A stretch of DNA of 64,000 nucleotides from Amoebophrya sp. A120 (Eukaryota > Protista > Dinoflagellata), in the NCBI GenBank assembly GCA_905178155.1, contig CAJINV010000005.1, positions 6,187,207 through 6,251,206 of the forward strand, in the 5' to 3' direction. This document shows, piece by piece, positions 5,040 to 32,460 of the stretch. The notes under the pieces are model-generated. The model had not been told where the DNA came from, did no database searches, and saw only the letters and a list, made by a program, of their open reading frames with translations. Made by a program: the position numbers and the translations under genes. Position 1 is the stretch's first letter. Every line of letters begins with the position of its first letter.

Positions 5040-8000
5040 CTATAAATATATACCCCCGGCGAGCCCGTGCAGGTTTGCAAACCGCTGGCGGCAGGCCTCG
5101 GTCATTTTCAAATAATCAACAGCAGCATCGTCCGTCGGTGCATTTCCATTTTCCACCTTCGCGATACAGTTTTTGCTCGGCGACTGGACCTGTTTCAAGA
5201 ACGCGATCCCCTTGCAGTCGCTATCCCGCGCGCACCAATCCAGGCAATCCTCGAACGTTTTAAACCCCGCGGGCTGCCCGTCGGCTGCGCTGCCCCCGGC
5301 AGCGTAGTTTTTTCCCACCTGCCGGATGCAAAAATTGTTCACGTCGTCAGTATCCCACGAAAAAACTGTTTCACTGTGATGATTTTGCAAGATCTGCATC
5401 ACAAGTTTGTTACACATGACACTGAAAATTTGTCATGCGCGCTGCCCAAGGGAAAACACGCTTGAAAATCCAATGTCTTGCAGGTCTAGCAAGACAAATA
5501 GTTCTGTGTTCCATTTTTCTGCATCACAAGTTCACAGTGAAACAGTTTTTTCTTGCGATAGTCAGGTTATGAAATGCAATGGTATCGTACAGCCAGTACT
5601 TGGCATTACAAATTTCCTTAGCATGACAAATGGAAGGTGTCATGCTGTTTTAGCTTAAGAAGGCGACTTGTCATGCATAATTGCGATTACTACGAGTGCG
5701 ATGCTTTTGCATTTCATACAGGTGGTGGGTAGAGCTCCTTCCGGACCAACGCGGTTGCAAAGTTGATGTTGTAGCCCGTCGTGACTTGGGGCGGTTTGCA
5801 TATGCATCGCAAAGAGGTCTGGGTCGGGAAGAGTGCAGGAGTTTGTCATGCTCATTTTGCATGACCCATGAGGCCTGTGATGCATGCCCTAGCATCAAAG
5901 ATTCTGCGAGGGTTTGTTTCTCATGGTCATGCCGCATGAGAAATCAATGCCCTCTCCGCGTAGCACAAATTGCACCTCTTTTGAATGCTGTTCATGCACT
6001 ACAAATTTTCTGCAGAATCCAAAGGTAGCATCACAAGTTGCATCCCCCCAGACCCAGACATATTTGCAAGGCATATTGCACCCCTTTACGCAGCAGTTGT
6101 TCGCCTTGTCGCATTCACTGTCTTCGTCCCGGGCGTGTGTACACCAAGGAATCAATATCCCCAGGAAATAAGATTTTCCCCCCGTACTTTTAGAAATACA
6201 AAAACATCAGCATCACATCTTCTGGTTTTTGCATGACAAAACTTTTCTCCAATCCTCCTGCTCAGCCTCTTCTTCTTCCCGAGTGTATGCATATTATGAA
6301 TGATCTCACGACCACTATTGCCAAGAAGTTGTTTGCGATGCATTTTGTCGTTTTTAGTTGTACTTGTGCGCGGCGTGGGGACGAAATACATTTCCATTGC
6401 ATAACCAGGCAGCTCATGTCATTGGTGGTCCAGGCTCCAGTTTCAAAATCCGCGGCCACCCGGCTCTGGTAAAAAGCCCCGTTGTTATGAAAGTGCACAA
6501 CTCCTCCTCCGCCTCGTTTGTATGGCATGAACAGCAATACAAACGCCCGTAGTCTTGAAGCCTGTGCATGACAAGTTCAAGTTCACCGGCCGAAGGTTGT
6601 ACTGTTTGGACTTCTGTTGAAATTTGTCATGCAAACAGTGCCACAGTGCAGCAAATGGATTTGCGGTTCTTTTGCATCACAAATGAGGGGGAGGAGTGGG
6701 AGTTGTGCACGCTCATAATTGTTTGGCTCCTGCCCGTGGCAGTAGTTGACGTGGTCACACTTCGCCCAGCACATTCTTTGTTCGTAGTACTCGTTGTCGA
6801 CACTCCAGTGAAAAGCGTTGGGACTCGCAGCCACATCTTGTGTATTCAGTACCCGGACCCCGAACTGCGCCGAATTTTCGCACGACGCGCAGCGTTCCGC
6901 GTGCGGCGCCGGGCAACCGGTGTCGGTCTTCGTGCCGTGGGCGCAGTCGCAAATTTCCGCGCAGCCCCGGCCTTGTAGCGGTTGTCCCGAACCCGGGCAC
7001 TTCAGCTGCAGAGTCCCCGTGTAGTCCGTGAAGTTTATCACGCAGAAAAAAGCAGGCAGGAGGTCACATTTGTAGTGCAACAGTGAATACTATACGTGTT
7101 GCATATCCCAAACAACATGCAGCCATGAGGCCGCCCATGACAGATTTTTCTGTGTATTTGTTTTGGCACTACAAATATGCCCTGGCTGCTTTTCTCTCTG
7201 GGATAGAGTTGCAGTGGTACAGATTGGTGTTTGCGACCCAGCCGCCGCCTGGGTACAGGCCGGCGCCCGTGTTGTAGTTCTGCCAAGAAATCACGCTGGT
7301 CCAATCCTGAGATGGGACCACATTATACTTGTGCACAAACAATGGATCTTCGGCACCCCCGACCGTGGGTACCACGCAGCCCTGCATACAGCAGGTAGCT
7401 TTATGCACTGCAAAAGTATCGCACTAGCATAAATTGCAATACAAATTTCCTCAGCATGAGGGATAAAATTTGTAATGCTGATTTACCTTAAGAGAAAGAT
7501 TTGTGATGCATGATTGCAATACGAGTACGATACTTTTGCATTGCATAAGCTTGGTCCCCTTGATCATCCCCGTCGCAATGCTGTCCGGCACACCGTAGGT
7601 TCGCGTGGTCTATCATATGCAAATATGTCTGGCTCTCGAAACTTGTGATGCAAATCTCGGAATGGTGGGCGCACTACAATATGCAGCCAAGCATGACAAG
7701 TTTTTGCACTGCCATGTGTTTCGTTTTCCGCATGGCAAACTGCGTTTTTGCATGACCGGCAAGAGGCCCCGTTCCTGCTTGCGCATTACAGATCTAGGAG
7801 TCATGCCAGACAAGCATGACAAGTCCTACATTCTTCCCGACCTAGACATTTTTGCAATTCATATGGTTGGCATTCGGCAGAAGGCCTCCGGGACACCAAT
7901 TTTCGGTTTTGAACCGCGTGCACCTTTCCTGACAACCGGCGAGGTGTATGGCGTTCTCAACTGTTCTTACATTCTCAGCTGTTACTTGGATTTGTGATGC

Positions 8001-11000
8001 AAGAATGGCAAAAGTGAAAGGGGGCACCTTGCGCGTCTTGCATGACAGATCTGGCAAAGATTCTCAGCCTGTTTGGCTCTTCGAGAATTTGTCATGCGAA
8101 GCAGCTTGATCGTGTCGATTCTGATTGTGATTTTGCATTACAAATCATCGTACAAGTTGAGAATGTAACATTTGAGAACGCCATAAGGAGCAGTTTCGTG
8201 TTGGGTGCTCCGCACGTGTAAGTTGCTGCACCCGCATGCGTGGCTGCGCACTGCAAGTGTGTCCACGTTTTCGCTTGATTCAGCTCCGGGTACGCCAAAG
8301 CTCTGCTCTTGAGCAAGTCATCTTCCCAATCTTTCCCGTTTAGTAATTCGTATCCAAAGGTATCCCCCGGCAGCGTGCACCTGTGCACGCAACACGCGCT
8401 CCGATCGGCTGTTCCGCAATGGTTGTCTGCACAGTGCGCGGTATCGTCCTGTACTAGAAAATAGCTAAAATCCGTCCCGCAACTAGCGTCCGGGTCGGTT
8501 TTGCACAGTTCCTGACAGCGGTCGGTCTGAATTTCCAGATCTTGCCCCGACCCCAAACACCTGACCTCGCGACTCAGCCCCTCGGCTTGTACGTGGGTGG
8601 TACTATCGCAGGTGATCCGCGAACTGGCTGTAGCCCAGCTGGCTGTGGCTTTGGGGTAGGCGAGGGCTGGGTCTTGGATCACATCAAGCCAGGTGGTCAC
8701 CGCAACGAAGCCGTATTTATCACTGTCTGCAGGGTTCACCACACACCCTTGGACACAGCAGGCTGCCTCATCCCCGGTGTATGTACTCTCATCCACACAG
8801 TGCTGCCCGGAGCAGGTCAATGCGGCGCGGTTTTCGTGTGGTAAGTAGCCGCTGTTGCACCAGTCTGCAGTTTCGAACTTCGTACAGCGTTCCTTGCAGC
8901 CGGTCAGCTCTAAAGCTGTATTAGCAGCTGCACACTCATACTGCGCAACGCCCGCATGGGAGCTCGAACACTCCAAATGCGCCCAGGATTGAAACTGACC
9001 GGCAGAACCCCCCGGGTAGGTCAGAGTGGAATTTCGCAGCAAATCGGCGACCCAATCTTTCCCGTCTTTCAGTTGGTATCCGACGGGGTCTGTCGGTGGT
9101 AAGCACCGCTGCACGCAGCACTTATTTCTGTCGGTAAGCGCGCAGTGGTTGTCAACGCAGTACATATCGTTATCAGGGGAAAGAAGGAAAAAGTCGCCCG
9201 TGACGCCGCAACTGGCCTCGTGTCCTGTCTTACACTTCTCACGGCAATACGCAGTTTTGATTTGTAATTTCTGCCCGCTCCCGGCACAGAAGGTTTCCGG
9301 GGTGCCGGAACCACTTGTTACGTGCGTCTGCGTATCGCAGGAAAGCAGTGAGCCCGCATCGGCCCAAGCGGCGGCACCAGGGTAGGCACTCGCTGCGCTT
9401 TCTCGCACGGTGAGCCAATCCGGAGTGGCAACGAAACCATACTTATCGTTACTCGTGGGGTCGATGCAGCCTTCGATGCAGCAGGTTGCGTGGTCGGTTG
9501 TCTGGTCGCAGTACTGCCCCGCACAGGTGAGAGACGCGTGATTCGACCTGGGTAAATAGCCGGGGGCAGCACTACTGCACCAGTCTGCATTTTTGAACTT
9601 CGTACAACGCTCCTTGCACCCTTGGAGGTGTAAAGCTGTATTTGGGCTCGCACACTTGTACTCCGCCGCGCCGTCGTGCGTCGCGGCACATTGCAAGTGT
9701 GCCCACGTTTATCGAAGGAAAAAACTGTTTCACTGTAAACTTGTGGTGCAGAAAGTGTATTGCAGAGAGGTGTTTGTCTTGCTACACATGCAACAAGACA
9801 TTGTAATTTCAAACGTGTTTCCCTTAGGAACCTCCCAGTTTCCCTTAGGAACCACGCATGGCACATTTTCTATAGTGGAACAAACTTGTGCTGCAAAACT
9901 TGCAAAGTCCTTACAGTGAAACACTTTTTTCGTAGGATAACGTTTTCACTTGATTCTCCGGGTACGCCAAACCCCGGCTCTTGAGCAGATCTTCCTCCCA
10001 ATCTTTTCCGTTTACCAACTGGTACCCAAAGCTATCCCCCGGCAGCGTGCACCTGTGCACGCAACAGGTGGTGCGGTCGGTGGTGCGGCAGTGGTTGTCT
10101 GCGCAGTAGGCGGTGTCGTTTTGGACAAGGAAATGCAGCGAATCCGTACCGCAACTAGCGCTTGGATCCGTTTTGCAGTACTCCCGGCACCGGTCGGCTT
10201 TCAATTTCAAGGGCTGATGCGATCCCGTGCACCACGTTTCGGGAGGACTGCTCTGTGAAGGCATGATGGCCACATGCGTCGCAGAAGAACAGCCGACGCG
10301 GGAGTCTGCGGTCGCCCAAACAGGGGCTCCGGAGCCGGTTGTCGGGTGTATCACATGTAAAAAGGTCCCCACCCCGTAGTCAAGTTGGGAACTTAGCAAG
10401 ACGAGTCGAGAAGTTTTGGGAGCCACGCATGACAAGTTGCAGTCCGTACTGTAGTGCATGGTAGCAAGGGCACCCGCTTCAGAAATCCATCTGCTTATCC
10501 TGTTTACAGCATTACAAATTCCAAAACGAGATTGGAAATGCCTCTCATGTTGGAGATGCGCGTTACAAATCTTCCTGTAATCGCAAATCTGCATAACAAC
10601 TATGGGGTGGGGGCGTTTTTACTCAGGATAGGGTAGGCCAGCGCCGGGTCCTCGCGGACATCGAGCCAATTTATCCTGTGCGAATGTATCGCACTTCTAA
10701 TCGCAGTCATGCAAGACAAATTTCTTTTTCAAGCTAAATCAGCATGAGAAATTCCATTTGCCATGCTGATCTAAATATGTATTGCAATACCACGAGTGCG
10801 AGTACGATACTTTTGCAATGCATACAATTGGCCACGAAGCCATACCGGTCACTCTCGGAGGGGTCCAGGCAGCCTTCCACGCAGCACTGCGCCTTCTCCT
10901 CCGACGAGGTACCGAATCCTGTGCAAAAGCGTTCCCAACATCCCAGAGTTGTCATGCAAATGCGCAATGATAGGAACATCTGTATTGCGAAGCTCCATGA

Positions 11001-14000
11001 GAGGCATTTCCAGTCGTGTTTTTGCGTTTGTGATGCTGTAAACAGGATGAGAAAGCGGCTTTCCCATGCGGCTTTCCATGCTAGCCAGGACTACACTGCC
11101 GAGGGAAACTTGTCATGCAGAACTTCCAAGACTTGGAGATTTGTGTCGTAGACTTCCCATCTTGAGCTTGACTATGTTGGTGTGGGGACGTTTTTGCATA
11201 GGATATGCCGCAGGTTTCCGTGACACAGGCCAGGCTCGCCGCGTTTGCCTTTTGCAGGTACCCGGGAAAGTGGTCTTTGCACATCACTATGGCGTTCTCA
11301 AACTTTAGACTCTCAACTGTTACACGCATCTGTGATGCAAGAACAGCAAAAGCGAAAGGGACAACGGGAAGTAGATTGCGCGTTTTGCATTACAAATATG
11401 GAACAGATTACTATCATGTTGCTGCTTAACCCTCCGACAGTTTGTCATGCGAAGCACCGTAAAGCAATTTTGCATGACAAATCTATGTAACAGTTGAGAG
11501 TGTAGTAACGTTTGCGCACAACGCCATAGTCAAGTGATTGCACATTTGGTTTTTCTGGCAGCAGCGCTCCTTCTGGTTGCCGCTGCAGTCGTGGTTCGTG
11601 CAGCGCAGGGCGTCCGGATTGGGTTGCAAGTGGTAGTAGTCCTGCCCGGCTACGTCATAGTCACTGCAGGCTATCCAGGAAAAAAGACCTATCTCCAATT
11701 TGTCATGCAAAACATGCATAAAGTCCAGTGTTTGTCATGCCAAAAATGGATGGGGATGGGTGTTCTTTCCTGGATACAGGTCACCCCCGCGCTACACCTC
11801 ATCCGGCAACAGGTCGCTTGTTCGCTACTGACGCAGCGATTTTTGGCACAGGGGTGGTCATCCTGGCGCGGCAGCTGATTCGCGGCGCACACGCCCGTGG
11901 AATGCTTGCACTTCTCCCCGCAACGGGCCAATTTCAGGCCGAGCGGCAGGCCTTCGCCTTTGCACCGCAGCAGCGGATTGCCAACAAGGCTCACGTGGGT
12001 GGGGGCGCACTCCAGCTGGGTGCTTATGAACTGCAAAAGCATCGCACTAGTATGAATCGCATGACAAACTTCCTCAGCATGAGAACTAAAATTTGTAATG
12101 CGGATTTAAGTTGAGAAAGAAATTTGGAATGCATGACTGCGATTACTACGAGTGCGATACTTTTGCACAGGATAGTGCTTGCATCGAACCAATCATTCAA
12201 GCCTAAGTTGTATCAACTGCAAATATGAAGTCTGGGTCTGGATGAGTCCAGATGTCTGTGATGCTGGTTGTGCATGACCGAGAAGGTCTGCCATGCAAGC
12301 GCTAGCATCACAAATTGTGAGAAGCAGAACGCTTCTCAATGCCTATCCCGCAGAACAAATTCCCACTTTCCTTCGGCGACAAGAAGTGCGCAACTTTTGC
12401 TCTCCGTGCACGACAGATTTTTGTGTGATCTAAAACGCGCATCACAAGGTCGCACTCCACTTCCAGACCCAGACGTATTTGCAAAGCATAAGCTGGGATC
12501 TGGGTAGGCCAGTGTACTCGACTCGCGGATTTTCAGCCACGTCCAGCCGTTTCTCAAAGTGAAGCCGTAGGGATCCGCAGGGTCCGCGCAGCCTTCGACG
12601 CAGCAGCGAGACCGCTCGGCCACTGCCGTGCTGGAGGTGTCGCAGGGCTCGCTTTCGCAGCTCAGAGTTGCGGCGTTGCTCCGTTGCAAATACCCATCCC
12701 AAATGCTCCCGCAGGGAACGTGGCTGCACTTTTGGTTGTCTTCGCAGCAGCGGGCTTCGTCATTGGCTAGCGTGCAGACGGCATTCGCGCACGCGGTACT
12801 GGATGCCTGGTCCTTGTGGTGCTTGTATTGCGGACAGACCAGGGAAACAGTGCACACGTCGTTGGACTCGCAACAGGTGCCCTGATCCTGACTCGGCGTG
12901 CAGGTAGCGGCCGCACAATGCTGCTGCGCCGCGTTATCTATCTGGTGGGTGAAGGGTCCACAGGTGAGATTGTCACACGTCTCGTTCTCTTCGCAACACT
13001 CGTCTAGTTGACACTGGCTGCTGGCGCACACAAACGTCGTCGCCTGCACCAAGTGGTGGGTGCCGGGCGGGCAGACGCTGGCCGAACAGTAGTCGTTAAG
13101 ATCGCAGCAACGATCTCGGTGCGCTGTGTTCGTACCGAGATTGCAGCTGTGGGCGCCGCAGGTAAGCATTCCGGTAAGATCGTTCTTTTTATGGTAGTTC
13201 GCCGGACAGTTTCCCGCGTGGCTGCACTTCAAGAAGCAGCACTTGGCGTCGGTGCAAACGCCATGGGTGCAGGAGCGGGTCCCCTGCAACTGATAGCCCA
13301 CGCCACATGTGATGCCCTGGTCCGCATCGTTGCATTTGTGATCGCCTTCGCAACAAATGTCCTGGTTCTCCTCGCTGCTACTGCAACTCGCGGTCTTGCA
13401 AACTGTACTGCCCGCCTGTGGGATCAGGTGCGTGCCAGCATCGCACGTCAGCGTGTCACACTTCGCATTCTGCAGGCAGCACTCGCTTATGGTGCAGACC
13501 TTTGCCGCGCACGTCGTGGCACTTTTGGCAGGGTCAAAGTGGTGCGTGTCCGCGGGGCAGACGCCAGGGTCGCAAGTTGGATTTGCGTTGCAACACTGAC
13601 CCCGCTGCGCGACGGAATTCTGCAGATCGCACTGGTACGCCCCGCAGTTAATCGTGTCTGGGTTGTCTTTTTGGTGGTATCCTGCCGGGTATCAAATGCA
13701 AATTTGTCTGGGTCTGGAAAAGTGCAACGTTTGTCATGCACGTTTTGCATGACGCATGAGGTCTGTGATGCATGCCCTGGCATCACAGATTCTGTGAGAT
13801 CTTTGCCATGCCTTCTCCGCATGAGAAACTGCCTCTCGGCTTGCTCAAAAGTGGACAGCGTTATTGGTAATCACGCAACACAGGTTTTTGCATGATTCAG
13901 ATTTAGCATGACAAACTGTACTCTACCAGACCCAGACATATTTGCAATGCATACCGGGCAAGCGCCCGCCGCGCTGCACTTTTCCCGGCAGCACAGTGCC

Positions 14001-20000: not shown

Positions 20001-23000
20001 ACGTGAAGAGGTCGTTCGCGAGACAGCCCGTTGTCGGTGGGATGTTTCTATCCTGTGCAAAAGTATCGTATTCGTAAGTCCTGCATTACAAGTTTTTTTC
20101 TCAAGGTAAGTCCGCATTTTATTTATCACGCTGAGGAAATTTGCAATGCATTTATACGAGTACGATACTTTTGCACTGCATAGTTTCCCGTGTTCGACTT
20201 CTTGACAAGCGAAAAGTGCTGCGAAGGAAGCAATGTTATCCTGTGCAAAAGTATCGTATTCGTATAAATGCATTACAAATTTCCTCAGCATGAGAAATAA
20301 CATTTGTCATGTGGATTTAGCTTAGAAAAAAAATTTGTGATGCATGACTGCAGTTACTACGAGTACGATACTTTTGCACAGGATAAGTGTGTCGCGCTGG
20401 CAATTTATCGGCTTGCTGGCGTCGTTTGCGTGCCACGTGAATTATGAACTGCAAAAGTATCGTACTCGTAGTATTGCAATACAAATTAGCTCAGCATGAC
20501 AAATGGAATTTCTCATGCTGATTTAGCTTGAAAAAGAAATTTGTCTTGCATGACTGCGATTAGTACGAGTACGATACTTTTGCAGAGGATATGAATCCAT
20601 CTTTGGCAACGACCCAGTTCAGAATATCGCCGATTATCAACTGTAAAAATCCCTGGATGTCTGGAAAAATCCAACTTGTCATGCTGATTTTGGATTCTAG
20701 AAAAATCTGTATTGCACGAGCAGCAAAGAGAGTCCAAGTTTTGCTACACGGAAAGAGCATTTGTCATGCGGTATAGGCATCAGGAAGCCCTCACCAAATC
20801 TGTGATGCTAGGGCATGCATCACAGACATCAGATGTCATGCAAAATGTGCATGACAAACCTGGCAATCTTCCAGACCCAGACATTTTTACATTTGATACC
20901 GATTCCGTAGCCAAACATATGGATTGCAAATATGTCTGGGTCTGGAAGATCGCCAGATTTGTCGCGCAGGTTTTCCATGACCCATGAGGTCTGGATGTAG
21001 GACATAGCATGACAGATTCTGCGGGACCTTTCTGATGCCTATCCTGCAGGAGAAACTGCCTCTCAATTAGGTCAAGAGTGCACAACTGTTGGCAATCATG
21101 CAACACAGTTTTTTTATTTTGCCTGATTCAGATTTAGCATGACAAGTTGCAATCATCCAGGTGGCCCAGACGTATTTGCATGTGATAGAACACGGGACAG
21201 AACTCAAAAAGGTGCGGACAGGACGTGTATGGGTTATTGTCGCACGCTATCAGGTGCAAAAGTGTCTGTGTCTGGAAACTTGTTATGCAAATCTACAAAT
21301 TGTGGGCGCACTGCAATACGCAGCCCAGCATGGCACGTTTTTGCGCTGCTCTGTGTTTCGTTTTTCGAATGACAAACTGCGTTTTTGCATGACAGGCAAG
21401 AGGCCCTGTTCCTGCTCATGCATCACAGATTTCTATACATAAGACTCATACCAGACAACATTGATGACAAACTTGCATTCTTCCAGACCCAGACATACTT
21501 ATTTGCATTTCATACACGCTTCGTTGCACTGATAGTCGTAACAGTTTTTGTATCGGAAGGAAAAATCCCCCCTCCCCATATCAAAACGAAATTTCTCATG
21601 CCGGATTTGTGTACACCAATCAGCTTTGTATTGCAGGAAGGTATTGCGGCCAGATCCCCATGCTGTGTAGGAGCGTATCGGTCTAGTTGTTCAGCATGGC
21701 AAACGGCTGCCCTTTAGGCTTAACAGCATGACAAATCGCTTCCATAATGGGGGCGAAGCTTTTGCCCTTGTCTTCTTGCAAGACAAATGTGATTTGTGAC
21801 CTCAAATCAGCAACACAAATTTTCGGAAACATGCCTTTTCGATATGGGGAGGGGGGATTTTTCCTCACAATATTTTGCCGTCCTCCGGCAAGCCTGTGCC
21901 CGCGTAGCCCCCGTCGCACACAACGCCGATATCAAATGTAAAAGTGTCTGGGTCTGGAAGAATGCAACTTGTCATGCTAAATCTGAAGCATGCAAAAATC
22001 TGTGTTGCATGATTACCAAAAGTCGCCCAGTTTTGACCAAGTCGGGAGGCAGTTTCTCATGCAGGATAGGCATGAGAAAGATCGCACAGAATCTGTCATG
22101 CTAGGTCCTGCATTCCAGACCTCATGGGTCATGGAAAAGCTGCATGACAAATCGCGCATTCTTCCAGACCCAGACATTTTTGCATTTGATAGCCGAACCC
22201 GCTGGCCGATTCGGACGGGGCGTCCGCCCGACGCCCACACTCCGAGTTGGCGAGAGTATGGCGCTCTCAAATGTTACGTTCTCAGCTGTTGCATGATTTG
22301 CCATGCAAAATGAGCATCAACGTCCAGGTCCACACGATAAAGCTACTTCGCATGACAAATTTTGGGAGGGCTAGGCTACTTCAACAGCATGGGAATCTGT
22401 GCCAAATTTGTAAGAGTGGGGTAACAAACCTCCCACCAGAAGTTGCAGGCCAACTTCCCATCCACCCGGCCGGGTGGATGGGAAGTTGGCTTGATTGGCC
22501 TGTCCGCGTCGCCCGCCCACCCCTCGCTCGCCCCTTCGCTACGACCAGGCGAAACTCGACCACCCTCGACAGCCGCAGTGTGCTGCCGTCTGTCCCCCCA
22601 TGGTTGTTCTTACGGGGCCCCGTATTTGGACAGAGACAGAAGCGGGCGGTCTACTCCAATAACGAACCCGCTGGATGCCCATCGGCTTCTTCAGAGATAG
22701 AGGCGCCGCGTCTTCTACAGTGGTAGGCTGCGACTTTGCGCAAACTCGCAACCACCCACCCAAGCCGGTGGCTTAGCTCGCAACCCGATGACGTTACGCT
22801 TCTGGGAGATCCGTTTAGTGTCAATCTCACTTCAAGTGAGATTGACTAAGGCAAACTAAACAAAATTTAACAATGTTAAATTTTGTTTAGTTTCTTAGTC
22901 GGCGAGATCGATCGTGGTAAGGCAAACGCCGCCACGAAACGCGCCCGCCCCGCCGAATGGCGGGCGAGAAATCTGCAAGCATGCAGAAGATAGCAAGCGC

Positions 23001-26000
23001 TGACGCTCGAAGAGCGTGCGCTACGTTGCTCGACCGCGGCACCCGCCCGCCCTTGTCTCGGTCGCCTGGGTATGACAGGCGCGCAGATCCTAGCTGCCAG
23101 ACATATGACGTTTCGCAACTGCTCGAACTCGCCAACGCATGCGCCGTCGTTGCGCGCCGTTGTTGTGGCGCCCTCGTGCGGCACTGAATGCGGTTGGTGT
23201 CGGTTTCACCTCAGCCCCTTGTGTGGTGTTGGCTGTGACCCCGCCTGCGGGGAAAATCAGCACTCGCTCCTCGCGGACCTCCACCTCCCTCACACGCGCG
23301 CATAACATCCGCGGCTCGCGGGCCCCGCGCATACGAGCGCGCGTGCAAAGGCTCGCACGAAATCGACGGCATGGGATGCAGCCTGCTGCCGCAGCTGCTT
23401 GCCCATGATCTGCCCTGCGGGAGGGCTCGCGGCTGGCGCCGTCGCGTCCCCATGTGCATATTGGCTTGACGTGTCGCGGACACCAAGCGCAAATGCGAAT
23501 AAAGAGGGCGGCTAGCTGTAGCTAGCGCTTCGCCCATATCAGCCGCTTTCTCGAGTCTCGTCGAGGGTGGAAGTCAACTCGTAACCACCCACCCAAGCCG
23601 ATGGCTTAACTCGCAAGCAACCAGAAGGCGTTACGTTTCTGGGAGATCCGGGATCCGGGGACGAGCGGGGGGTGGGCGGGCGACGCGGACAGGCCAACCA
23701 GGCCAACTTCCCATCCACCCGGCCGGGTGGATGGGAAGTTGGCCTGCAACTTCTGGTGGGAGGTTTGTTACCCCACTCTAATGCAAGAGTTGCAAGATCC
23801 GGCCTCTCCCTGTTGCCATTCTTGCATCACAAATTCATGTGACAGTTGAGCATGTAACAATTGAGAATCCCATAGAGAAAGAATTCGGTGTGCTCCCTCA
23901 GGTGGTCCCACGCCTGACCCGGAGCTTCCTGGTCCCAATACGAATCCGACGTGTTGCACCTATTGTCTAAATCCGTATACGGTATGGAATGCAAAAATGT
24001 CTGGGTCTGGAAGAGTCATGCTGTAGTTTTGGCATGACACAGAAGGTCTGGTATGGGAGCTCTGGCATCACAGTTTTCGAGAAACTTTCGCAATGCCGAA
24101 TCCGCATGACAAATGTCGCCCCATTTTGGTGGCAGAAACTGTAACTGAGCAGCTTTTGCTACCTATGCATGAGAGATTTTTCTGTGTCCTGAAATGCGCA
24201 TCACAAGTTTGTATTCTTCCAGACATCCAGGGACTTTTACATTTGATATACGGCGTCAGGAAACGATGGTACCCAATATCGCACGTAGAATGCTGCTATG
24301 AACTGCAAAAGCATCGTACTAGTATAAATTGCAATACAAATTAGCTCAGCATTACAAATTAAATTTGTAATGCGGATTTGCCTTAAGTAAATACATAAAA
24401 GCACTTAGTACGAGTACGATACTTTTGCACAGGATAGCTGCCCCCGTTTTAGCGGCCTGCATATCAAATGCAAAAGTGTCGGGGTCTGGAATGCTGCCGG
24501 GTTTGTCATGCATATTCTGCATCACCCAGGATGTCTACTGTAATGCACGGCCTAGTACAACGTAGCATCGCAGATTTTTAGAGGGCCTCCTGCTCCTGAT
24601 GCCTACTCCCCATGACAAATGCCCTCCCCGCGTAGCACAAACTCGCCTCCTCTTTCTGGTCATGCAATACAGATTTTTTTAGAGTCCAAAGTTAGCATCA
24701 CAAGTTCCAACCTTCGGCACCCAGACACTTTGGCATTTGATACTGCACGCAAAGGCACCACCGTCGTCGAAGAAGACGCTCGGGCTATCGTAAGGGAAAA
24801 CCCCTCCTCCCCATATCGACAAGGTGCGCCTCAGAAAATTTGCAATGCTGATCATTGACCAAAGATCGTCTCTGTCTTGCAAGAACGCAACTCCACAGAC
24901 AGCCGCCGCATTCTGCAGGCGGTTTGTGATGCTGTTGGCCCTACAGACTAGACATTTGCCATGCTCAGCGCCTAGCCCAAAACCTTCCTACTCAGGCTTA
25001 TTATAGGCCTGCAGGAGTCTTTTCCAGCAATACAAATCTGATTTGTATACGCAAATACAGCATCAGAAACTTCATTTTGATATGGGGAGGGAGGATTTTT
25101 CCTTTTGATACGGGTTCCGCAGTTTCAGCACTTCGTGCTGCAGTCTGAGGAGGCAAGATTGGTCTACCGCGACACTGTATGCATTGCAAATATCCCTGGA
25201 TGTCTGGAAGGTTTCAATTTGTGATGCTGTCTTACGATTCTGAAAAAATCTGTACTTATTGCATGAACAGCAAAAGCGGTCCAGTTTTTGCCACGGCGAG
25301 AGGGCATTTCTCACACCGTCTAAGCATCAGGAAGCCATCTAAAAGTCTGTGATGCTAGGCCATGCATCACGACAGACATCATGGGTCATGGAAAATACGC
25401 ATGACAAACCTGGCACGTTTCCAGACCCAGACATTTTTGCACTTGATACACTGCTAGGTGCTCCGCCTACCGCAGTCGAAGATGTGGCAGAATATCTACT
25501 TCCGCCTGTGTTTTCCAGATGACTTGTTCCGCTGCTGCTGCTGGTGTCGAGTTGTAATTGCGCACTGGTCCTCATTTCCGAAGGTGCTCTCCTCGTCGGA
25601 GAAGCTGCTGCAGCTGCAGTATTGTGAGGAAAAATCACCCCTCCCCATATCGAAAACGCGCGCTTTTCAAAATTTGCGATGCTGATTTGTGGCCACAGGT
25701 CGAGTCTGTCTTGCAAGAGAGCAAAGCCAGACCTTCCGCCGCATTTCGCAGGCGATTTGTAGTGCTGCTGCGCCAATGGGGCAGACATCTGCCATGCTAA
25801 GTGACTACCTCAAGCCACCCCTGTCCAGGCTTTGTATCTACCTGCAGTGCTCTACTGCAAGACAAAGCTGATTTGTGTACGCAAATACAGCATCACGGAC
25901 TTCCCCTTCGATATGGGGAGGGGGGATTTTTCATTTTGATATGCAGCTGCCGGTGTACTACTAGTGGCCCGGACCGGTGGACCGACTACCACCGACGTCA

Positions 26001-29000
26001 TGCCGCCGGCGCCGTATCAAATGCAAAAATGTCTGGGTCTGGAAGAATACAGACCTGTGGTGCGCATTTCAGAACACAGAAAAATCTCCCATGCATAGGC
26101 AGCAAAAGCTGCCCACTTTCTGTCACCAAAATGGGGAATTTGTCATGCGGATTCGGCATTGCGGAACAAGCTTCTGGAAACCTGTGATGCTAGAGCTTCC
26201 ATGCCAGACCTTCTGTGTCATGCAAAAACAGCATGACGCTTCCAGACCCAGACATTTTTACATTTGATACGCCGTCGCCCTGGAATAAATAGCCGGCTTG
26301 TTCCTCGTCGTTTCTCTTCTGGTACGCTGACGGGCCGCTGTTATCCCACAGAAAAAAGCCGACAGGTCACATTTGTAATGCAAAAATAAATACACAATAG
26401 AAATCTGTATTGCGTAGCCTAAACAGCATGCTATGAGGCCGCCCATGACAGATTTTTTTCTGTATTTATTTTTGCATTACAAATATGCCCTGCCAGCTTT
26501 TTTCTGTGGGATAGCTGTAGGCAGATGAAAAGTGGTCCTCCCGGTCGCGGGGGCCATCGTCCCCGTAGAAGTTGTCGTCCAGAAACGTGTATGAACTGCA
26601 AATATGTCTGAGTCTGGGAGATTGCGAGATTTGTCATGCTAGTCTGGCATGACTCTAAACTCTGTATTGCGTGCCCGCGCAGACGAGCTTTTCTTGTCTG
26701 TCATGCAAAAACGCAGTTTCTCATGCGGAGTACGCAACTCTGAACCACGGAAAAACTTGTCATGCTGGGCAGCGCATTCCAGTGCGCTCACTCTTCCCTT
26801 TCTTGCATCACATCGGAGGTCTTGCATCACAAGTTTCCAGACCCAGAAATGTATGAATTGCATAACGTGCTATTGTTGGCATCTTCTTGAGGGAAAAAAT
26901 CTTGGCTCCTGTTGTTCAGTTTCTGCGCCGTGGCCTGCAGCATCTCCTCCAGCTCAGGCGTTATGATGTTCTCAAATGTTACATTCTCAACTGTTACATG
27001 AATTTGTAATGCAAGACTGGCGAAAGTGAAAGGAGGAAGATTGTGCCTCTTGCATATACAAGTTTGGCGTAGATTTAGATGCTGTCTAGCTCTCCCGATT
27101 TTTGTCATGCGAAGCAGCTCGATCATCTGCCGGCTTAAGGTACTTTCATGTAACTAACAGTTGAGAATGTACTTAACGTTTGAGAACGCCATAGCCGTTT
27201 CCGTGTTGTTTCGGATCGCCGCCTGGATTTCGTCCAGCTGCGCCCGCCCTCCTTCGGTTGCCGTATTCTGTGCAACTACAGTATCGCGCTCGTAGTATTA
27301 TAAATCGCAGTCATGCATTGCAAATCTGCATCACAAGGTAAAACAGCATGACAAATTGCAGATGATCTCATGCTGAGCAAATCCAAATTTGTAGTGCCAT
27401 GTATTATATGCGATTTGATATACTAGTACGATACTTCTTCTTTTGCAATGGTTATGCCGCCAGTTGCGACAACAAAGCCCGGTGCCCAAACAGCCCTGCT
27501 GTGTTGTCTGGCTTTCCCTCCCCGCCCGCTGCACGAGGCTGCTCGATGTGCCCCCGTCCTCCTAGAGACGCCGGCGCCTCCTCCTGCCGTGGGCGCGGCT
27601 GAATCTTTATGCCTGGCGTTGCGTGTGGTTGCAGTAGCGAAAGGGCCCGCAGAAACAGCGGCTGCAGGTGCTTGTTCTGCAAAGCTGCGCCCACAAAGTG
27701 CCGCACGGATATGGCATGCTCAGCTGGATGAACAATCTCAACTGAAACTACGAATGCAACTGCAAGTCGTAAATTTGTCTTGCATAAAAGGGCAACAACA
27801 GAGCCAGAGTCTCGTCTGCTTGCAGCTCCAGGTCTTTTACATGACAAATTTTGTACGGATTATAAATCAAAATCATGCCAATGGTGGGCTCGTGTGTAAA
27901 GAAATCAAACAAGATTTTTCATGCTAGACTCTATGTCAGCCACACAGGTCATTTGCATTTTATTTGCATTCGAAAAACAAAAAAAAAGTCTCCATCTGAA
28001 AACTTTCCCTCTGAGCAGGCCATAATGTAGGACCGCGCCTTCTTATGCTGTGCAAAAGTATCGCACTCGTTTAAATGCAAGCCTTGCATTACAAATCTTG
28101 TTCCCAAGGCAAATCTGCATTACAAATTTTATTTCTCATGCTGATGAACTTTGTAATGCATTTATACGAGTACGATACTTTTGCAGTTCATACTTCTGTT
28201 TCCAATACGACGCCATGGATGGGGAGGCTGTACTATGAACTGCAAAAGTATCGCACTCGTATATTTGCATTACAAACTTCCTCAGCATGAGAAATAAAAT
28301 TTGTAATGCGGATTTACCTTAGCGTAATGCATGATTGCCATACGAGTACGATACTTTTGCACGGGATATGTACTGCCGCCCGACGAAACAACTACCGGCG
28401 GCGCGTGGTCGTCGTGCTGGGTCGACTATCCTGTGCAAAAGTATCGCACTCGTATTGCGATCATGCATTACAAATCTTTTTCTTAAGGTCAATCCACATT
28501 ACAAATTTTTTTTCATGCTGAGGAAATTTGTAATGCATTTATACGAGTACGATACTTTTGCAATTCATAGGGTCGACGTTCCATTTGCTTTTTTTGGAGA
28601 AGCTAGTCCTGCCGGAACGACGTTGTCTTTTATTTGTTGGACAGGAGCGGCAACATTTTGTCTTTTTACTTCATCTTATCAAATGTAAAAATGTCTGGGT
28701 CTGGAAACTTGTGATGCTGGGTGGCGTATCATGATGAGGCCACAGGTGCTGGCTCAGCATGACAAGTTTCTGAGCTTCTAGGCGTTGCCTATTTTGCATG
28801 ACAAAATGCGTTTCTGCATGACAGAAAAGTGGAGCTCTTTGGTAACGTGCATGACAGACTCAAGAGTCATGCCAGACAAGCATGACAAACATGCATTCTT
28901 CCAGACCCAGACATTTTTACATTTGATACATCTTGTTCCTGCGCGCCGAAGAAGGACGCAGAGCCTGAACTGCTTGCTCTTCGTGAAAATGCTTCTTTGC

Positions 29001-29769
29001 GAAGCTTGGTCTTGGTCCTCCCCTCCGCGTCATCATCTAGTTTTATTTCCGATTGCTGTAGTTCAACACCAGCATCAACCGAGTGATCACGACGACCATG
29101 TTATCAAAATGAAAAATCCCCCCTCCCCATATCAAAATGAAAATTTCTGACGCTGATTTGCGTACACCAATCCGACTTGTCTCGCAGTAAGGCACTGCGG
29201 CCAAATCCGCACCTAAGGCGGGAGCGCTCAGGTCTAGCTGTTCAGCATTGCAAACGGCTACCCTCTAGGATCAACAGCATGCCAAATCGCTTCCACAATT
29301 GGGCGGAATCCTCTGCAACTTGTCTTCTTGCAAGACAAACCTGCTTTGTGGTCACACATCAGCAACACAATAAATTTTCGAAAACATACCTTTTCAATAT
29401 GGGGAGGGGGGATTTTTCCTCTCAATACATGTTGGAGGACGCGGCCAGGATGTTGTTGGACATCATGATCAACATCATCTACTCCCTCGTCCTCTTCATG
29501 ATTCCTTTCATTTACATTTTCTTCCACCCCGGGATCCAGATCTCCTAGCTGGGCTCGGCGTTTCGTCTTCGCTGAGACCGCCCGCGCCTGGACGCCCAGA
29601 CCGTCGAGAAAGCTGGCTCCTTTGGAATTGGAAGATGATCTGTGGTCCTCGAAACGTCGGTGGTCGCGGTCGCCATGGTAAAAATCGCGACGCTCATGAG
29701 GAAAAAAAATTGATCCCATATCGCCTTCGCGGGGGGTTGCGGTTGAGGAGGTGGACCCGCCACTGAAAA
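5040..29769 (-). CDS. Giant Cys-rich modular repeat protein (about 2,900 aa or more; low-complexity N-terminal part, Cx..CC repeat modules, C-terminal PAN/apple-like domain); likely secreted or surface; about 55 non-canonical introns
   Basis: Hand-splicing the TIR elements joins exons in one frame, e.g. ELYPPP-DDVNNFC, NQVKT-WAHLQC, GFVAN-WLDV, PDGC-SNEW, NEA-CDNNP, VLQH-GRRD. C-terminal CLDWCARDSDCKGIAF...NCIAK is PAN-like. Junctions at ~6150-6710 and the 5' end are unresolved. Confidence 0.88.
5351..5560. mobile_element. Introner, TIR type D
   Basis: tatcccacgaaaaaactgtttcactgtg ... cacagtgaaacagttttttcttgcgata; DR gtcag/gtcag; frame restored. Confidence 0.9.
5568..5718. mobile_element. 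Introner, TIR type A
   Basis: tatgaaatgcaa...ttgcatttcata; DR caggt/caggt; frame restored. Confidence 0.88.
5801..6075. mobile_element. Introner, TIR type B
   Basis: gtctgggtc/gacccagac arms; DR ttgca/ttgca; gives VKGC-KPPQ. Confidence 0.9.
6499..6704. mobile_element. Atypical inverted-repeat intron-like element without TAT/ATA ends
   Basis: aactcctcctccgcctc...gagggggaggagtgggagtt flanked by gtgcac on both sides; carries the tttgtcatgc motif; exact junction unresolved. Confidence 0.55.
7036..7205. mobile_element. Introner, TIR type E
   Basis: tatcacgcagaaaaaagcag...ctgcttttctctctgggata; DR aagtt/gagtt; YHCN-FTDY; homologous to 26342-26513. Confidence 0.9.
7402..7547. mobile_element. Introner, TIR type A
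   Basis: DR agctt/agctt; GDQ-ATCC. Confidence 0.92.
7611..7863. mobile_element. Introner, TIR type B
   Basis: DR tggtc/tggtt; PNAN-HANLRC. Confidence 0.9.
7947..8185. mobile_element. Introner, TIR type C
   Basis: tatggcgttctcaa...ttgagaacgccata; DR aggtg/aggag; frame restored. Confidence 0.92.
9710..9939. mobile_element. Introner, TIR type D
   Basis: DR acgtt/acgtt; empty paralogous site at 8265-8269. Confidence 0.93.
10349..10630. mobile_element. Introner, TIR type F
   Basis: tatcacatgtaaaaaggtccccacccc...ggggtgggggcgtttttactcaggata; DR gggtg/gggta; LAY-PTT. Confidence 0.9.
10672..10824. mobile_element. Introner, TIR type A
   Basis: DR caatt/caatt; FVAN-WLDV. Confidence 0.92.
10915..11205. 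mobile_element. Introner, TIR type F
   Basis: Left end AAT variant; DR taccg/tgccg; ETCG-TSSE. Confidence 0.87.
11288..11528. mobile_element. Introner, TIR type C
   Basis: DR atcac/gtcaa (3/5); frame restored. Confidence 0.85.
11672..11776. mobile_element. Introner, TIR type H (105 bp, shortest clear copy)
   Basis: tatccaggaaa...tttcctggata; DR caggc/caggt; GVT-CSD. Confidence 0.88.
12025..12174. mobile_element. Introner, TIR type A
   Basis: DR gtgct/gtgct; FDAS-TQL. Confidence 0.92.
12211..12490. mobile_element. Introner, TIR type B
   Basis: DR agttg/agctg; frame restored. Confidence 0.88.
13690..13953. mobile_element. Introner, TIR type B
   Basis: DR ccggg/ccggg; GAC-PAGY. Confidence 0.93.
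14001..14176. mobile_element. Introner, TIR type A
   Basis: DR gtgcc/gtgcc; right end GTA variant; SEA-LCCR. Confidence 0.9.
14628..14862. mobile_element. Introner, TIR type C
   Basis: TIR of more than 30 bp; DR acctt/acctt; NGK-VHV. Confidence 0.93.
15190..15339. mobile_element. Introner, TIR type A
   Basis: Left end TCT variant; DR gcgtg/gcgta; KCS-TLDC. Confidence 0.88.
15345..15900 (-). repeat. Coding tandem repeat, ~114-117 bp (38-39 aa, 6 Cys) units
   Basis: CDSLTCxAGTHHKDxAxxxFCExESCGxxDQxTCCEASAS repeated about 3-4 times. Confidence 0.85.
15406..15563. mobile_element. Introner, TIR type A
   Basis: DR ctcat/ctcat; CEN-ESC; neighbouring repeat units carry the empty site. Confidence 0.92.
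16099..17459. mobile_element. Expanded introner, TIR type F, with ~0.95 kb foreign insert
   Basis: F arms at both ends; DR ccgcg/ccgcg; KGT-AANT; foreign sequence starts with a T-run at ~16144. Confidence 0.85.
17506..17813. mobile_element. Introner, TIR type J
   Basis: ~40-bp TIR tatggaagtgtcaggtttgaaatcgacaaagttgaaataa; DR ctgca/ctgca; DGC-SNEW. Confidence 0.92.
18011..19201. mobile_element. Expanded introner, TIR type K, with ~0.9 kb insert
   Basis: ~50-bp TIR (aaatgagtgatctt..tgctccta); DR cagaa/cagaa; ARCF-WQD. Confidence 0.87.
19258..19500. mobile_element. Introner, TIR type C
   Basis: DR ctgca/ctgca; interior reversed relative to 7947-8185. Confidence 0.92.
19546..19698. mobile_element. 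Introner, TIR type A
   Basis: Left end GAT variant; DR gtgcg/gcgcg. Confidence 0.87.
19762..20001. mobile_element. Introner, TIR type D
   Basis: DR cctga/cgtga; frame restored. Confidence 0.88.
20049..20182. mobile_element. Introner, TIR type A
   Basis: DR gtttc/gtttc. Confidence 0.92.
20237..20385. mobile_element. Introner, TIR type A
   Basis: Near-perfect TIR tatcctgtgcaaaagtatcgta; DR aatgt/agtgt. Confidence 0.92.
20443..20591. mobile_element. Introner, TIR type A
   Basis: DR tgaat/tgaat; KDG-FTW. Confidence 0.92.
20635..20898. mobile_element. Introner, TIR type B
   Basis: DR ccgat/ccgat; GYGI-GDI. Confidence 0.92.
20918..21187. mobile_element. Introner, TIR type B
   Basis: DR aaaca/gaaca; CPV-FGY. 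Confidence 0.9.
21248..21514. mobile_element. Introner, TIR type B
   Basis: DR cacgc/cacgc; CNEA-CDN. Confidence 0.92.
21551..21872. mobile_element. Introner, TIR type G
   Basis: ggaaaaatcccccctccccatatc arms; DR ttttg/ttttg; EDG-KNC. Confidence 0.92.
21930..22191. mobile_element. Introner, TIR type B
   Basis: DR gccga/gccga. Confidence 0.92.
22257..23874. mobile_element. Introner, TIR type C, containing a nested MITE
   Basis: C arms at both ends; DR gagag/gagaa; frame restored. Confidence 0.88.
22414..23778. mobile_element. Non-autonomous DNA transposon (PIF/Harbinger-like MITE) nested in an introner
   Basis: ~120-bp TIRs starting gagtggggtaacaaacctcccacc; TAA duplicated at 22411-22413 and 23779-23781; removal restores host motif aaatttgtaatgcaag. 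Confidence 0.88.
23983..24248. mobile_element. Introner, TIR type B
   Basis: DR tacgg/tacgg; reverse-complement homolog of 26015-26269. Confidence 0.92.
24297..24436. mobile_element. Introner, TIR type A
   Basis: DR gctgc/gctgc. Confidence 0.92.
24462..24742. mobile_element. Introner, TIR type B
   Basis: DR ctgca/ctgca; FAC-RPL. Confidence 0.9.
24786..25110. mobile_element. Introner, TIR type G
   Basis: DR cgggc/cgggt; LRN-PSV. Confidence 0.9.
25178..25448. mobile_element. Introner, TIR type B
   Basis: DR cactg/cactg; APS-SVA. Confidence 0.92.
25620..25941. mobile_element. Introner, TIR type G
   Basis: DR tgcag/tgcag. Confidence 0.92.
26015..26269. mobile_element. Introner, TIR type B
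   Basis: Near-perfect ~30-bp TIR; DR cgccg/cgccg. Confidence 0.93.
26342..26513. mobile_element. Introner, TIR type E
   Basis: Perfect 18-bp TIR tatcccacagaaaaaagc; DR gctgt/gctgt. Confidence 0.93.
26590..26864. mobile_element. Introner, TIR type B
   Basis: DR acgtg/acgtg; NNS-TFL. Confidence 0.9.
26962..27193. mobile_element. Introner, TIR type C
   Basis: DR ggcgt/gccgt. Confidence 0.88.
27264..27454. mobile_element. Introner, degenerate TIR type A
   Basis: DR tgccg/tgccg; QLA-ATE. Confidence 0.85.
27710..28024. mobile_element. Introner, TIR type L
   Basis: tatggcatgctcag...ctgagcaggccata; DR acgga/atgta (3/5); frame restored. Confidence 0.72.
28044..28192. mobile_element. Introner, TIR type A
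   Basis: DR cttct/cttct. Confidence 0.92.
28234..28368. mobile_element. Introner, TIR type A
   Basis: DR tgtac/tgtac. Confidence 0.92.
28427..28569. mobile_element. Introner, TIR type A, with 8-bp direct repeat
   Basis: gggtcgac at 28419-28426 and 28570-28577. Confidence 0.9.
28677..28928. mobile_element. Introner, TIR type B
   Basis: Perfect ~30-bp TIR; DR catct/catct. Confidence 0.93.
29102..29427. mobile_element. Introner, TIR type G
   Basis: DR catgt/catgt; VLQ-HGR. Confidence 0.92.
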
Positions 29770-30256: not shown

Positions 30257-32460
30257 TCATTCTACCCCTTGAAGAGATGACTGTTCCATCTTCGCAGGCC
30301 ATAACGGTCGCGCAGGTGGAACAGGATGAGGATGAAGGGCTCGGCCCAGCGAGACCCGGTGGTCGTCCCCGACGTGGTGGAAAGGTATATCAAATTAGAA
30401 AAGTCCTCAGCTGTATTTTTCCTCATAGGGCCAAAAAAAAAAAAATTTGCGCGGGTTTTTATGTATCAGAACCAGGCCCACCCTTCAGGAGGTTCTCCGG
30501 GATAGGGTACAGCCTCCATCTATCAGGCTGCATTGCGATGGTGTTTGGGATACGAAAAGCAGACCAATTGAAGCCAATCACGGCGGCAGTGCAAAAAGAA
30601 AAACAGCACACCGTCGCGCTTGAGCAAAAAGTGACCCCGTGTGGCCACCGTAGCATCGGTAATTGAATGCAAAAAAAGCTTCTCCCACTGCTACCGTATT
30701 TGTGCTCACTCTCCTTCCTGACCCTAGGAAAAGCTATGATTTATAGCATCAAAGTGAGCTGCTTTTTGAGAGAGTTCTGATCCAGAGCTCCGTCGTGGAA
30801 GTCATTTGTACTCATAGCAAAAAAAAATGAGTACTCATAGCAAGGTTTCGGACGTCAAAATGCCAAGGATTTTGATCAAAAAAGCAGCTTTTTTTTGCAA
30901 AAAAAGCATCTTTTTTGCCTTCTCCGCATTACAGCCTCGACGGTCCGAGTCACAATTCTGGCCAACTGAGGCACTTCTTGGCCATGCTTTTCAGCGCCAT
31001 ACCGTCGCGATGAGTCCTCTTTTTCAAAGCAATCCCATCACTCACAAATAAGCAGCAGGCGCATAATTTCCGAACTTGCCGTGAATTGCTTTCCGCTTGG
31101 GCGATGCTACACGCCTTGAGTTCTGATCTACAAATATGCTTGAAATTTATTTTTTTTTGCCCTATGAGGAAAAATACAGCTGAGGATGTTTCTCATGTGA
31201 TAAGGTAATATCGGCATTTATTTCTCGGCACAGACTACAACAGTTATGTTGCTGTTGGTGTTTCTTACTCTTCCGCTTGCTGCATTTGAACTTGTTGATG
31301 TTCTTGCGAGGGCAATTTGTTCGTGAAAACGACGCGCCTCCAGCCGGTCGGTTATTTGCGGCAGCTTTTGAAGATTCTGTAGTGGAAGATGTTTGTGGTT
31401 TTCTTGCGCGGAAGACGTAGTTATTCCTGTTCAATAAGTTGTTTTCAGACGAGTCAAAATCAATTTTTCCCGCCGTTGACTCCTCCTCAACATTCTGCTG
31501 CTCCCAGAAGTTGTAGTCCACAGACGACCCCGCGCGACTGCTGGGTCCTCCTCGTTTCAATATTTGTCCCGCAGCAAATCGAACCGGAGGACCAACACGG
31601 GCCGCACAGGTGCAGCAGGATAAAAAAAGCTCCTCCTGGGGAGCTTGTTGCTCTGGCTCGACGAGGGCCACATCTTCACCGTTTACTTCTTCTTCTGGTC
31701 GTTCACCTCGTCGGGGTGCAGCAGGTTGTTGTTCAACATCTACTACATCTTTGGCAGGGGTAGATGAACCGGATGAACCGGATGAATCCACCATCTTGTT
31801 CGTGGTAAAACTCTTTTGCCCGAGATCTTTGTGGTAGTCATTCTTGTCGCCGCGGGGTGGTAGAAGCCGCTCTTCGACGTCATCCTCCTCCCGCGGAATC
31901 GGGGCGGGAACAAGGGCGTCGGTTTTTACATCAACGTCTCCTAGCTTCTCTTGGGATGATGATGATGAAGATGAACCCGATGGTCGTCCCCGACCTGATG
32001 GAAAGGTAATATCGGCATTTATTTCTTGGCACAGACTACAACAGTTATGTTGCTGTTGGTGTTTCTTCTTCTTGTTCTTCTGCTTGCTGCACTTGTTGAT
32101 GTTATTCTTGCGACGGCAATAATTTGTTCGTGAAAATGACCACGCGCCTCCAGCCGGTCGGTTATTTGATGCATCAACGTCTCCTAGCTGCTCTTGGGAT
32201 GATGAAGATGAGCCACCACGTCCTCGCGCCATCATCCTTGTACGAGACAAGATGAGGCTGGTACTGGTACTGGTGTTCGTGTTGGTGCTGCCCCTGCTCC
32301 CGGTCCTCGTCCTCCCGTGGTTTTCGTGATCTACTTCTACCACAACTGATGTTTCTGTTGTGTTGTAAGAAGCACTTCTACTGCAGCAGCTCCGGTGTGC
32401 CTGTGGTTGTTCCCGTGACGATCTTCTATGTCGTGGGACGACTGCCATGTTGATCTTCAC
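30257..32460 (-). CDS. Low-complexity coding exons, probably the 5' part of the giant Cys-rich gene
   Basis: 432-aa ORF 31162-32460 continues in frame (INADIT-FPPRRGRPPG) after removing introner 30388-31202. The link across 29770-30256 is not resolved. Confidence 0.5.
30388..31202. mobile_element. Long introner (815 bp), TIR type M
   Basis: ~60-bp TIR (tcctcagctgtatttttcctcatagggc); DR aggta/aggta; empty paralogous site aaaggtaatatc at ~32002-32013. Confidence 0.88.
31203..32167 (-). repeat. Internal coding duplication (~160 bp; 31203-31358 vs ~32004-32167)
   Basis: NNRPAGGA(W)SFSRTN...KHQQQHNCCSLC(Q/R)EINADITF occurs twice. Confidence 0.85.

What the first reader, a model, noticed from the sequence alone, without database searches (positions are those of the whole stretch)
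5351..31202. Transposon-like TAT...ATA elements act as non-GT-AG introns: about 55 in one gene
Seen: each element has TIRs and a 5-bp direct repeat, and excising element plus one repeat copy restores a single ~2,900-aa frame across about 50 hand-checked junctions. The ends have no GT/AG. About 64% of 5040-29769 is such sequence. Established: IR/DR-bounded non-canonical introners were reported in Amoebophrya genomes, so the class is not new; to my knowledge its excision machinery and mobilising enzyme remain unidentified. Inference: an RNA-level (or DNA-level) precise excision system distinct from standard U2 splice-site recognition.
Basis: partly seen in the sequence, partly recalled or inferred. 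Interest (0 to 1): 0.92.

Follow-up and report, generated by a model that had tools for sequence, protein, structure and literature searches.

The report
Hairpin-measured transposon introns in Amoebophrya
One gene of the marine parasite Amoebophrya A120 carries 57 small transposon copies of an already published kind that are missing from its transcript sequences although they lack normal splice signals, and all 57 cuts fit one position rule (1 base before and 4 bases after a predicted hairpin), which likely reveals how the still unknown splicing machinery finds them.

Summary
There are 57 TAT…ATA inverted-repeat elements in 5351-31202. Removing each plus 5 bases gives one 3,405-codon frame on the minus strand. 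The gene is the deposited Amoebophrya sp. A120 model GSA120T00009912001 (CAD7951556.1), and the elements are the published A120 introner elements, so the class is known. Contigs of a probable RNA run are spliced; DNA-type contigs keep the elements, so removal is at RNA level.

Added here: one cut position, intron = N + TAT…ATA + NNNN, is the only one that fits all 57 junctions of the deposited protein, and probable-RNA contigs agree at six junctions. At the one element with an 8-bp repeat only 5 extra bases go, as predicted beforehand, so the cut is measured from the hairpin and not guided by the repeat. Elements work in both orientations, with no AG, branch-point or G+1 signal; U+2/A+3 are invariant. 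The most likely catalyst is a modified spliceosome with hairpin-defined sites (about 55%); the rival is a Euglena-like non-spliceosomal nuclease/ligase (about 33%). The source paper calls the borders variable or unknown. No transposase was found.

The parts
5040..32448 (-). Host gene: 58 exons, 3,405 aa; low-complexity N-terminal part, Cys-rich repeats in the C-terminal two thirds; = GSA120T00009912001 / CAD7951556.1 (3,399 aa)
   Evidence: 3,296 residues identical to P0002
5568..28569 (.). ~150-nt family, 16 copies: 5568-5718, 7402-7547, 10672-10824, 12025-12174, 14001-14176, 15190-15339, 15406-15563, 19546-19698, 20049-20182, 20237-20385, 20443-20591, 24297-24436, 27264-27454, 28044-28192, 28234-28368, 28427-28569
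   Evidence: BLAST cluster, mean identity 76%; orientations 7:9
5801..28928 (.). ~265-nt family, 14 copies (two BLAST clusters that I merged): 5801-6075, 7611-7863, 12211-12490, 13690-13953, 20635-20898, 20918-21187, 21248-21514, 21930-22191, 23983-24248, 24462-24742, 25178-25448, 26015-26269, 26590-26864, 28677-28928
   Evidence: orientations 7:7
7947..27193 (.). ~240-nt family, 6 copies: 7947-8185, 11288-11528, 14628-14862, 19258-19500, 22257-23874, 26962-27193
   Evidence: orientations 3:3
5351..29427 (.). Smaller families: 10349-10630, 10915-11205, 16099-17459; 21551-21872, 24786-25110, 25620-25941, 29102-29427; 5351-5560, 9710-9939, 19762-20001; 7036-7205, 26342-26513
6156..31202 (.). Elements not placed in a family here: 6156-6403, 6486-6717, 11672-11776, 17506-17813, 18011-19201, 27710-28024, 29770-29962, 30026-30303, 30388-31202
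   Evidence: the two at 29770 and 30026 were not clustered separately
28423..28570 (-). Intron of the element with an 8-bp direct repeat; element + 5 is removed, leaving one extra Thr codon
   Evidence: deposited protein has the extra residue
6152..6404 (-). Partly retained intron; weakest predicted hairpin of 51 (z -0.4)
   Evidence: X3 contig 6122-6432 unspliced at depth 19 against 62-68 for its neighbours
5562..5563 (-). 2-nt exon between two adjacent elements (joint removal of both gives the same product)
   Evidence: contig length 802 reproduced
22414..23778 (.). Younger element nested in 22257-23874: TAA duplication, ~120-nt inverted repeats 97% alike; PIF/Harbinger-like by its duplication (recalled label)

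Best explanation
These are non-coding inverted-repeat transposon copies (the published Amoebophrya A120 introners) that are absent from the transcript sequences, with cuts that fit 1 base before and 4 bases after the element, likely measured from a predicted RNA hairpin, and the catalyst is most likely a modified spliceosome. Shown: anatomy, families, both orientations, the need to remove all 57, spliced contigs beside unspliced DNA-type contigs, and the single 1+4 register. Inferred: a transposase acting in trans inserted them with a 5-bp staggered cut. Because 1+4 equals 5, an ordinary insertion is removed without a scar whatever the target sequence and orientation, which would explain their spread through exons. 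Inferred and untested: the paired ends replace U1 and U2AF/AG in choosing sites, while U6/U2/U5 catalyse, reading N-U-A at the 5' end (canonical G-U-A with G+1 relaxed) and counting 4 bases past the stem at the 3' end.
For: Register: of six registers only 1+4 matches the deposited protein at all 57 junctions; 0+5 fails at 5 and 2+3 at 4; about 2e-4 if registers were random (counts taken). Contigs of run X3 agree: piece ends and a graph simulation give 802, 311 (6122-6432), 923, 1463 and a start at 11530; the simulation excludes 2+3 and beyond, and the piece ends at 6719 and 7031 plus the 11530 start exclude 0+5. The 8-bp-repeat outcome was written down before one search showed it. Second gene, out of sample: 6 of 9 introns are TIR-bounded and fit 1+4, one excluding 0+5 and one lacking any repeat. 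Hairpin: 47 of 51 fold with z below -2; positions 1-3 pair in 54-56 of 57. For the spliceosome: T+2 and A+3 in 57 of 57; all nine commonest A120 non-canonical end pairs are xT-, and A25's are TT- although its repeats begin TTA; spliceosomal proteins present, U1 snRNA not detected (PMC7789003 Tables S4 and S6, sections 10-11).
Against: No catalyst, lariat or circle was observed. T+2/A+3 are also the transposon's own end, so they need not be a splice signal. There is no G+1, AG or branch-point signal (G 20 of 57, p 0.38; AG 3 of 57; YTRAY 17 of 57 against 27 in shuffles), a lot for a spliceosome to lose. Second gene: one 2,641-nt intron has no TAT/ATA ends, and one 1,005-nt intron is annotated one base longer than 1+4. 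The deposited protein is a transcript-guided model, not a sequenced protein; it errs or differs elsewhere (106 aa missing in a tandem repeat that X3 covers; another C-terminus) and may rest on the same RNA data as X3. X3 is only guessed to be RNA. Junctions above 19,300 rest on the deposited protein alone. Table S4 may reflect aligner preference. The source paper describes the sites as variable.
Confidence: 0.55

Rival explanations
1. Same hairpin ruler, but the cut and join are made by a non-spliceosomal structure-specific endonuclease and an RNA ligase, as proposed for euglenid nonconventional introns.
For: No G+1, AG or branch signal; works in both orientations; a 2-nt exon. The geometry resembles Euglena's N3-CDG…CH'G-N5-6, with the 3' spacer 2-3 longer than the 5' one (PMC12501133); here 1 and 4. 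Euglenid introns leave as circles without lariats (review PMC11282704).
Against: U+2 is kept in both A120 and A25 although their repeats start at different offsets. 15% of canonical A120 introns have the same repeat layout. No such enzyme has been identified.
Confidence: 0.33
2. The direct repeat guides removal (microhomology), either in the cell or as reverse-transcriptase skipping across hairpins during library preparation.
For: Strong hairpins flanked by short direct repeats are the known setting for template switching (own knowledge); 35 of 57 repeats are perfect.
Against: At the 8-bp repeat only 5 bases go; an element with no repeat is removed in the second gene; one register fits all; retention of any intron gives a premature stop in 57 of 57; homologues of 2,700-4,100 aa exist, some in transcriptome sets.
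Confidence: 0.04
3. The elements are excised from the DNA (programmed or transposase-driven) in expressing cells.
For: Transposon anatomy; the nature of run X3 is only guessed.
Against: X1 contigs identical to the window run across element borders at depth 37-46, like element-free exon sequence; X3 holds both retained and spliced forms of 6156-6403. The source paper reports RNA-seq-supported introns. Contigs drop rare variants, so rare excision is not excluded.
Confidence: 0.04
4. Self-splicing RNA.
For: Strong predicted structure.
Against: Unrelated interiors of 105-1,618 nt, both orientations, no Rfam match in the window.
Confidence: 0.02

Closest known systems
Amoebophrya A120 introner elements (Farhat et al. 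2021, PMC7789003; 58 families in Gozashti et al. 2025, PMC12130899)
   Same: Same organism and gene; inverted repeats, 5-bp direct repeats, TAT-N7-AAA ends, non-canonical RNA-supported introns; family sizes of 149, ~260, ~320, 811 and 1,191 nt occur among the 19 of 58 rows seen.
   Different: Not different in kind. The paper's Fig. 3 legend calls splice sites variable relative to the hairpin and the borders unknown; here one fixed register fits and is independent of the repeat.
Euglenid nonconventional introns (PMC12501133, PMC11282704)
   Same: MITE-like origin, paired ends, slidable repeats, fixed spacers outside the stem, unknown machinery.
   Different: Motif CDG…CH'G with spacers 3 and 5-6 and a purine after the 3' site, against TAT…ATA with spacers 1 and 4; unrelated lineage.
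MITEs (non-autonomous TIR DNA transposons)
   Same: TIRs, target duplication, no coding capacity, families 68-78% alike, a shared internal motif (166 hits in elements, 5 in exons).
   Different: No cognate transposase known or found; superfamily unassigned; spliced without a scar.
Spliceosomal introners of Micromonas and Aureococcus, and Fritillaria non-canonical introns
   Same: Transposon-derived introns on a genomic scale.
   Different: Aureococcus introners keep canonical motifs and Fritillaria's share an AG-A(N) pattern; here neither end dinucleotide is fixed beyond T+2.

Membership tests
Amoebophrya A120 introner element | 8-20 nt inverted repeats at both ends | tested here: met
   positions 8-14 pair in 46-53 of 57
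Amoebophrya A120 introner element | 3-5 nt direct repeat across the borders | tested here: met
   35 of 57 perfect 5-mers, one 8-mer, the rest with 1-2 mismatches
Amoebophrya A120 introner element | end motif TAT, seven bases, AAA | tested here: met
   76 of 114 ends
Amoebophrya A120 introner element | repeated in families and removed from transcripts in A120 | tested here: met
MITE | TIRs, target duplication, no coding capacity | tested here: met
   no Pfam hit in ORFs of the long elements
MITE | cognate autonomous element with transposase | tested here: inconclusive
   none among 72 sequences scanned (not all 178 ORFs); no genome held
Canonical U2 intron | GT or GC at the 5' end | tested here: not met
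   G+1 in 20 of 57, background level; T+2 in 57 of 57
Canonical U2 intron | AG at the 3' end and a branch-point consensus | tested here: not met
   AG 3 of 57; YTRAY 17 of 57 against 27 in shuffles
Canonical U2 intron | lariat intermediate, snRNP dependence | not testable with these tools
   needs raw reads or experiments
Euglenid nonconventional intron | N3-CDG…CH'G-N5-6|R signature | tested here: not met
   +4 is T in 54 of 57
Euglenid nonconventional intron | terminal hairpin at fixed distance from both cuts | tested here: met
   (folding is predicted)
Euglenid nonconventional intron | released as full-length circle | not testable with these tools
   contigs cannot show it

The most novel reading that the evidence does not exclude
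Amoebophrya A120 has a second, spliceosome-independent splicing system that reads no splice-site sequence at all: it binds a UAU/AUA-capped hairpin and cuts 1 base before and 4 bases after it, exactly undoing the 5-bp duplication of the transposase, convergently with Euglena. Any hairpin-ended cassette inserted in either orientation would then be an instant scarless intron.
Probability: 0.33. Interest if true: 0.85.

Novelty: already known. Interest (0 to 1): 0.5.

Why it matters
The elements and this gene model are published, but how most A120 introns are removed is open. A fixed 1+4 rule turns that into direct tests: it predicts every junction genome-wide, says where a branch point or circle junction must be sought (inside the symmetric terminal repeat), predicts that only duplications of 2, 5 or 8 bp survive in coding exons, and specifies reporter mutations. 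It also explains why the elements are tolerated anywhere in exons. I did not find this rule in the six library searches, but figures of PMC7789003 (3, S19-S23) could not be seen and may show part of it, and Roy et al. 2023 was not held.

Tried and rejected
My first reading of 29770-30256 as one repeat-less element, possibly GA-AG, was wrong: it is two elements around a 58-nt exon. The internal GCAWBACA motif as a branch point or an oriented subterminal site: no polarity (p 0.52). Raw RNA runs X9 and X10 barely touch the gene and were uninformative; no listed holder was on record as RNA. DNA run X1 flooded the joint table, so only 15 of about 2,060 joints were shown. The word-based protein search missed the 3,399-aa protein because of its 2,000-residue limit. 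Pfam found nothing for the host protein; the Atlas gave only weak hits of 0.79 or less; Rfam found nothing. The last 100 residues of the deposited protein were not found in the window. Earlier scan findings: none. A third gene (62260-64000) opens to 221 codons under the rule but has no residue that tells registers apart.

Full report
Observation. A blind scan for terminal inverted repeats flanked by 5-bp direct repeats returned a dense series between 5351 and 31202. Thirty-two pass a strict test against 0.03 in shuffles. With degenerate copies curated by hand, removing 54 elements opens a 2,944-codon minus-strand frame and removes 64.3% of 5040-29769. Other offsets or random phases fail. The final set is 57 elements and a 3,405-aa frame from 32448 to 5040. 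Retention of any one gives a premature stop (57 of 57). Exons are 59% GC and elements 45% (54 elements).

Identity. A search with one exon found a 3,399-aa protein, named by its source as Amoebophrya sp. A120 GSA120T00009912001, CAD7951556.1. It is identical to my model at 3,296 residues, apart from a 106-aa gap in a tandem repeat and a different C-terminus. Farhat et al. describe A120 introner elements with inverted repeats starting TAT, seven bases, AAA, and 3-5 nt direct repeats; 76 of 114 ends here match that motif. The host protein is Cys-rich (10% after residue 520 of the 2,944-aa model), has no Pfam hit, and has homologues of 2,700-4,100 aa, three with F5/8 type C domains. An extracellular or adhesion role is a guess; no membrane segment stood out.

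RNA or DNA. In one search (5000-19300), contigs of X1 match the window without differences and cross element borders at depth 37-46. Contigs of X3, guessed to be RNA, skip the elements: one 5,366-nt record jumps 14622 to 14863 (element + 5), and its other gaps match the model. X3 has no depth inside the long element at 16448-16924. A graph simulation reproduces four record lengths and one record start, which covers the removal of elements 1-10 and 15-22. One element, 6156-6403, is present both spliced and retained (depth 19 against 62-68) and has the weakest predicted hairpin of 51; this is a single case. No reads were laid above 19,300.

The cutting rule. Where the two repeat copies differ, the product shows which copy supplied each base. 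Only the register 1 base before TAT and 4 bases after ATA fits all 57 junctions of the deposited protein; 5 junctions exclude 0+5 and 4 exclude 2+3. X3 gives the same answer at six junctions (6156, 6486, 7036, 11288, 12211, 15190), one of them (11288) indirectly. A ruler predicts that an 8-bp duplication leaves three extra bases; I noted this, and the deposited protein has the extra Thr. In a second gene (P0061; 9 introns) six TIR-bounded introns fit, including one with no repeat that allows only 1+4 or 2+3; one is GT-AG without a clear TIR; one of 2,641 nt has no TAT/ATA ends; one is annotated a base longer than the rule, where 1+4 would give GT-AG and a stop codon. Table S4 of Farhat et al. 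lists only xT- starts among the nine commonest A120 non-canonical pairs, though aligner preference could contribute.

Mechanism. Families occur in both orientations (7:9, 7:7, 3:3), so every signal must lie in the symmetric ends. The ends form a predicted 3-bp stem, a loosely paired stretch at positions 4-7 (23-33 of 57 paired) and a longer stem. G+1, AG and branch-point motifs are at or below background. T+2, A+3 and A-7 are invariant. I favour a spliceosome whose site choice has passed from U1 and U2AF to the hairpin (0.55), because U+2 is shared with A25 at a different repeat offset, the proteins are present and U1 snRNA was not detected. A Euglena-like nuclease and ligase remains a strong rival (0.33). 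Repeat-guided skipping, DNA excision and self-splicing are unlikely. Mobilisation by a transposase in trans is inferred; none was found among 72 sequences scanned, which gave only LINE fragments.

Literature seen. PMC7789003: abstract, sections 10, 11, 16, 25, passages, supplement legends S19-S25 and Tables S4-S6 (in part); figures not seen. PMC12130899: passages and 19 of 58 A120 rows of one supplement; two files not searched. PMC12501133: passages and discussion. PMC11282704, PMC9860276, PMC11453091, PMC12787238, PMC13326754: passages. PMC13149111: term search with no hits. Roy et al. 2023: not held. Reverse-transcriptase skipping and the PIF/Harbinger label are from my own knowledge.

Verdict. 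The feature is real and already described, down to this gene model. The useful addition is a fixed, repeat-independent 1+4 rule that I did not find in print and that makes the unknown machinery testable. Interest 0.5.

Noticed in passing
window 42020-48409 (-): Second gene (P0061, 334 aa, A120) with 9 introns, six of them TIR-bounded introners; its last intron would be GT-AG and create a stop under the 1+4 rule, one base off the deposited model.
   Followed up: yes
window 62260-64000 (-): Third gene fragment: five elements whose removal opens a 221-codon frame to the window's end.
   Followed up: partly
window 22414-23778: Young nested element with TAA duplication and 97% identical ~120-nt inverted repeats inside an introner.
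   Followed up: partly
window 16143-17237: About 1.1 kb inserted in introner 16099-17459, including a fragment of the ~240-nt family at 17089-17211.
   Followed up: partly
window 2110-3003 and 36435-37574 (-): LINE fragments: endonuclease (PF14529) and reverse transcriptase (PF00078).
   Followed up: no
window 5040-5053: The deposited model leaves the frame at a GTAT site just before the stop and adds 100 residues not found in the window, whereas an X3 contig reads through.
   Followed up: partly
window 15576-15893: Tandem Cys-rich repeats (106 aa) missing from the deposited model but covered without gaps by an X3 contig.
   Followed up: yes
window 33400-34540 and 60960-61400: Two tandem repeat arrays with internal inverted symmetry (about 68-nt and 39-nt units).
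   Followed up: no
window 32820-33084, 51618-58129, 60002-60151: Further TAT…ATA elements, several with decayed direct repeats; host genes not worked out.
   Followed up: no
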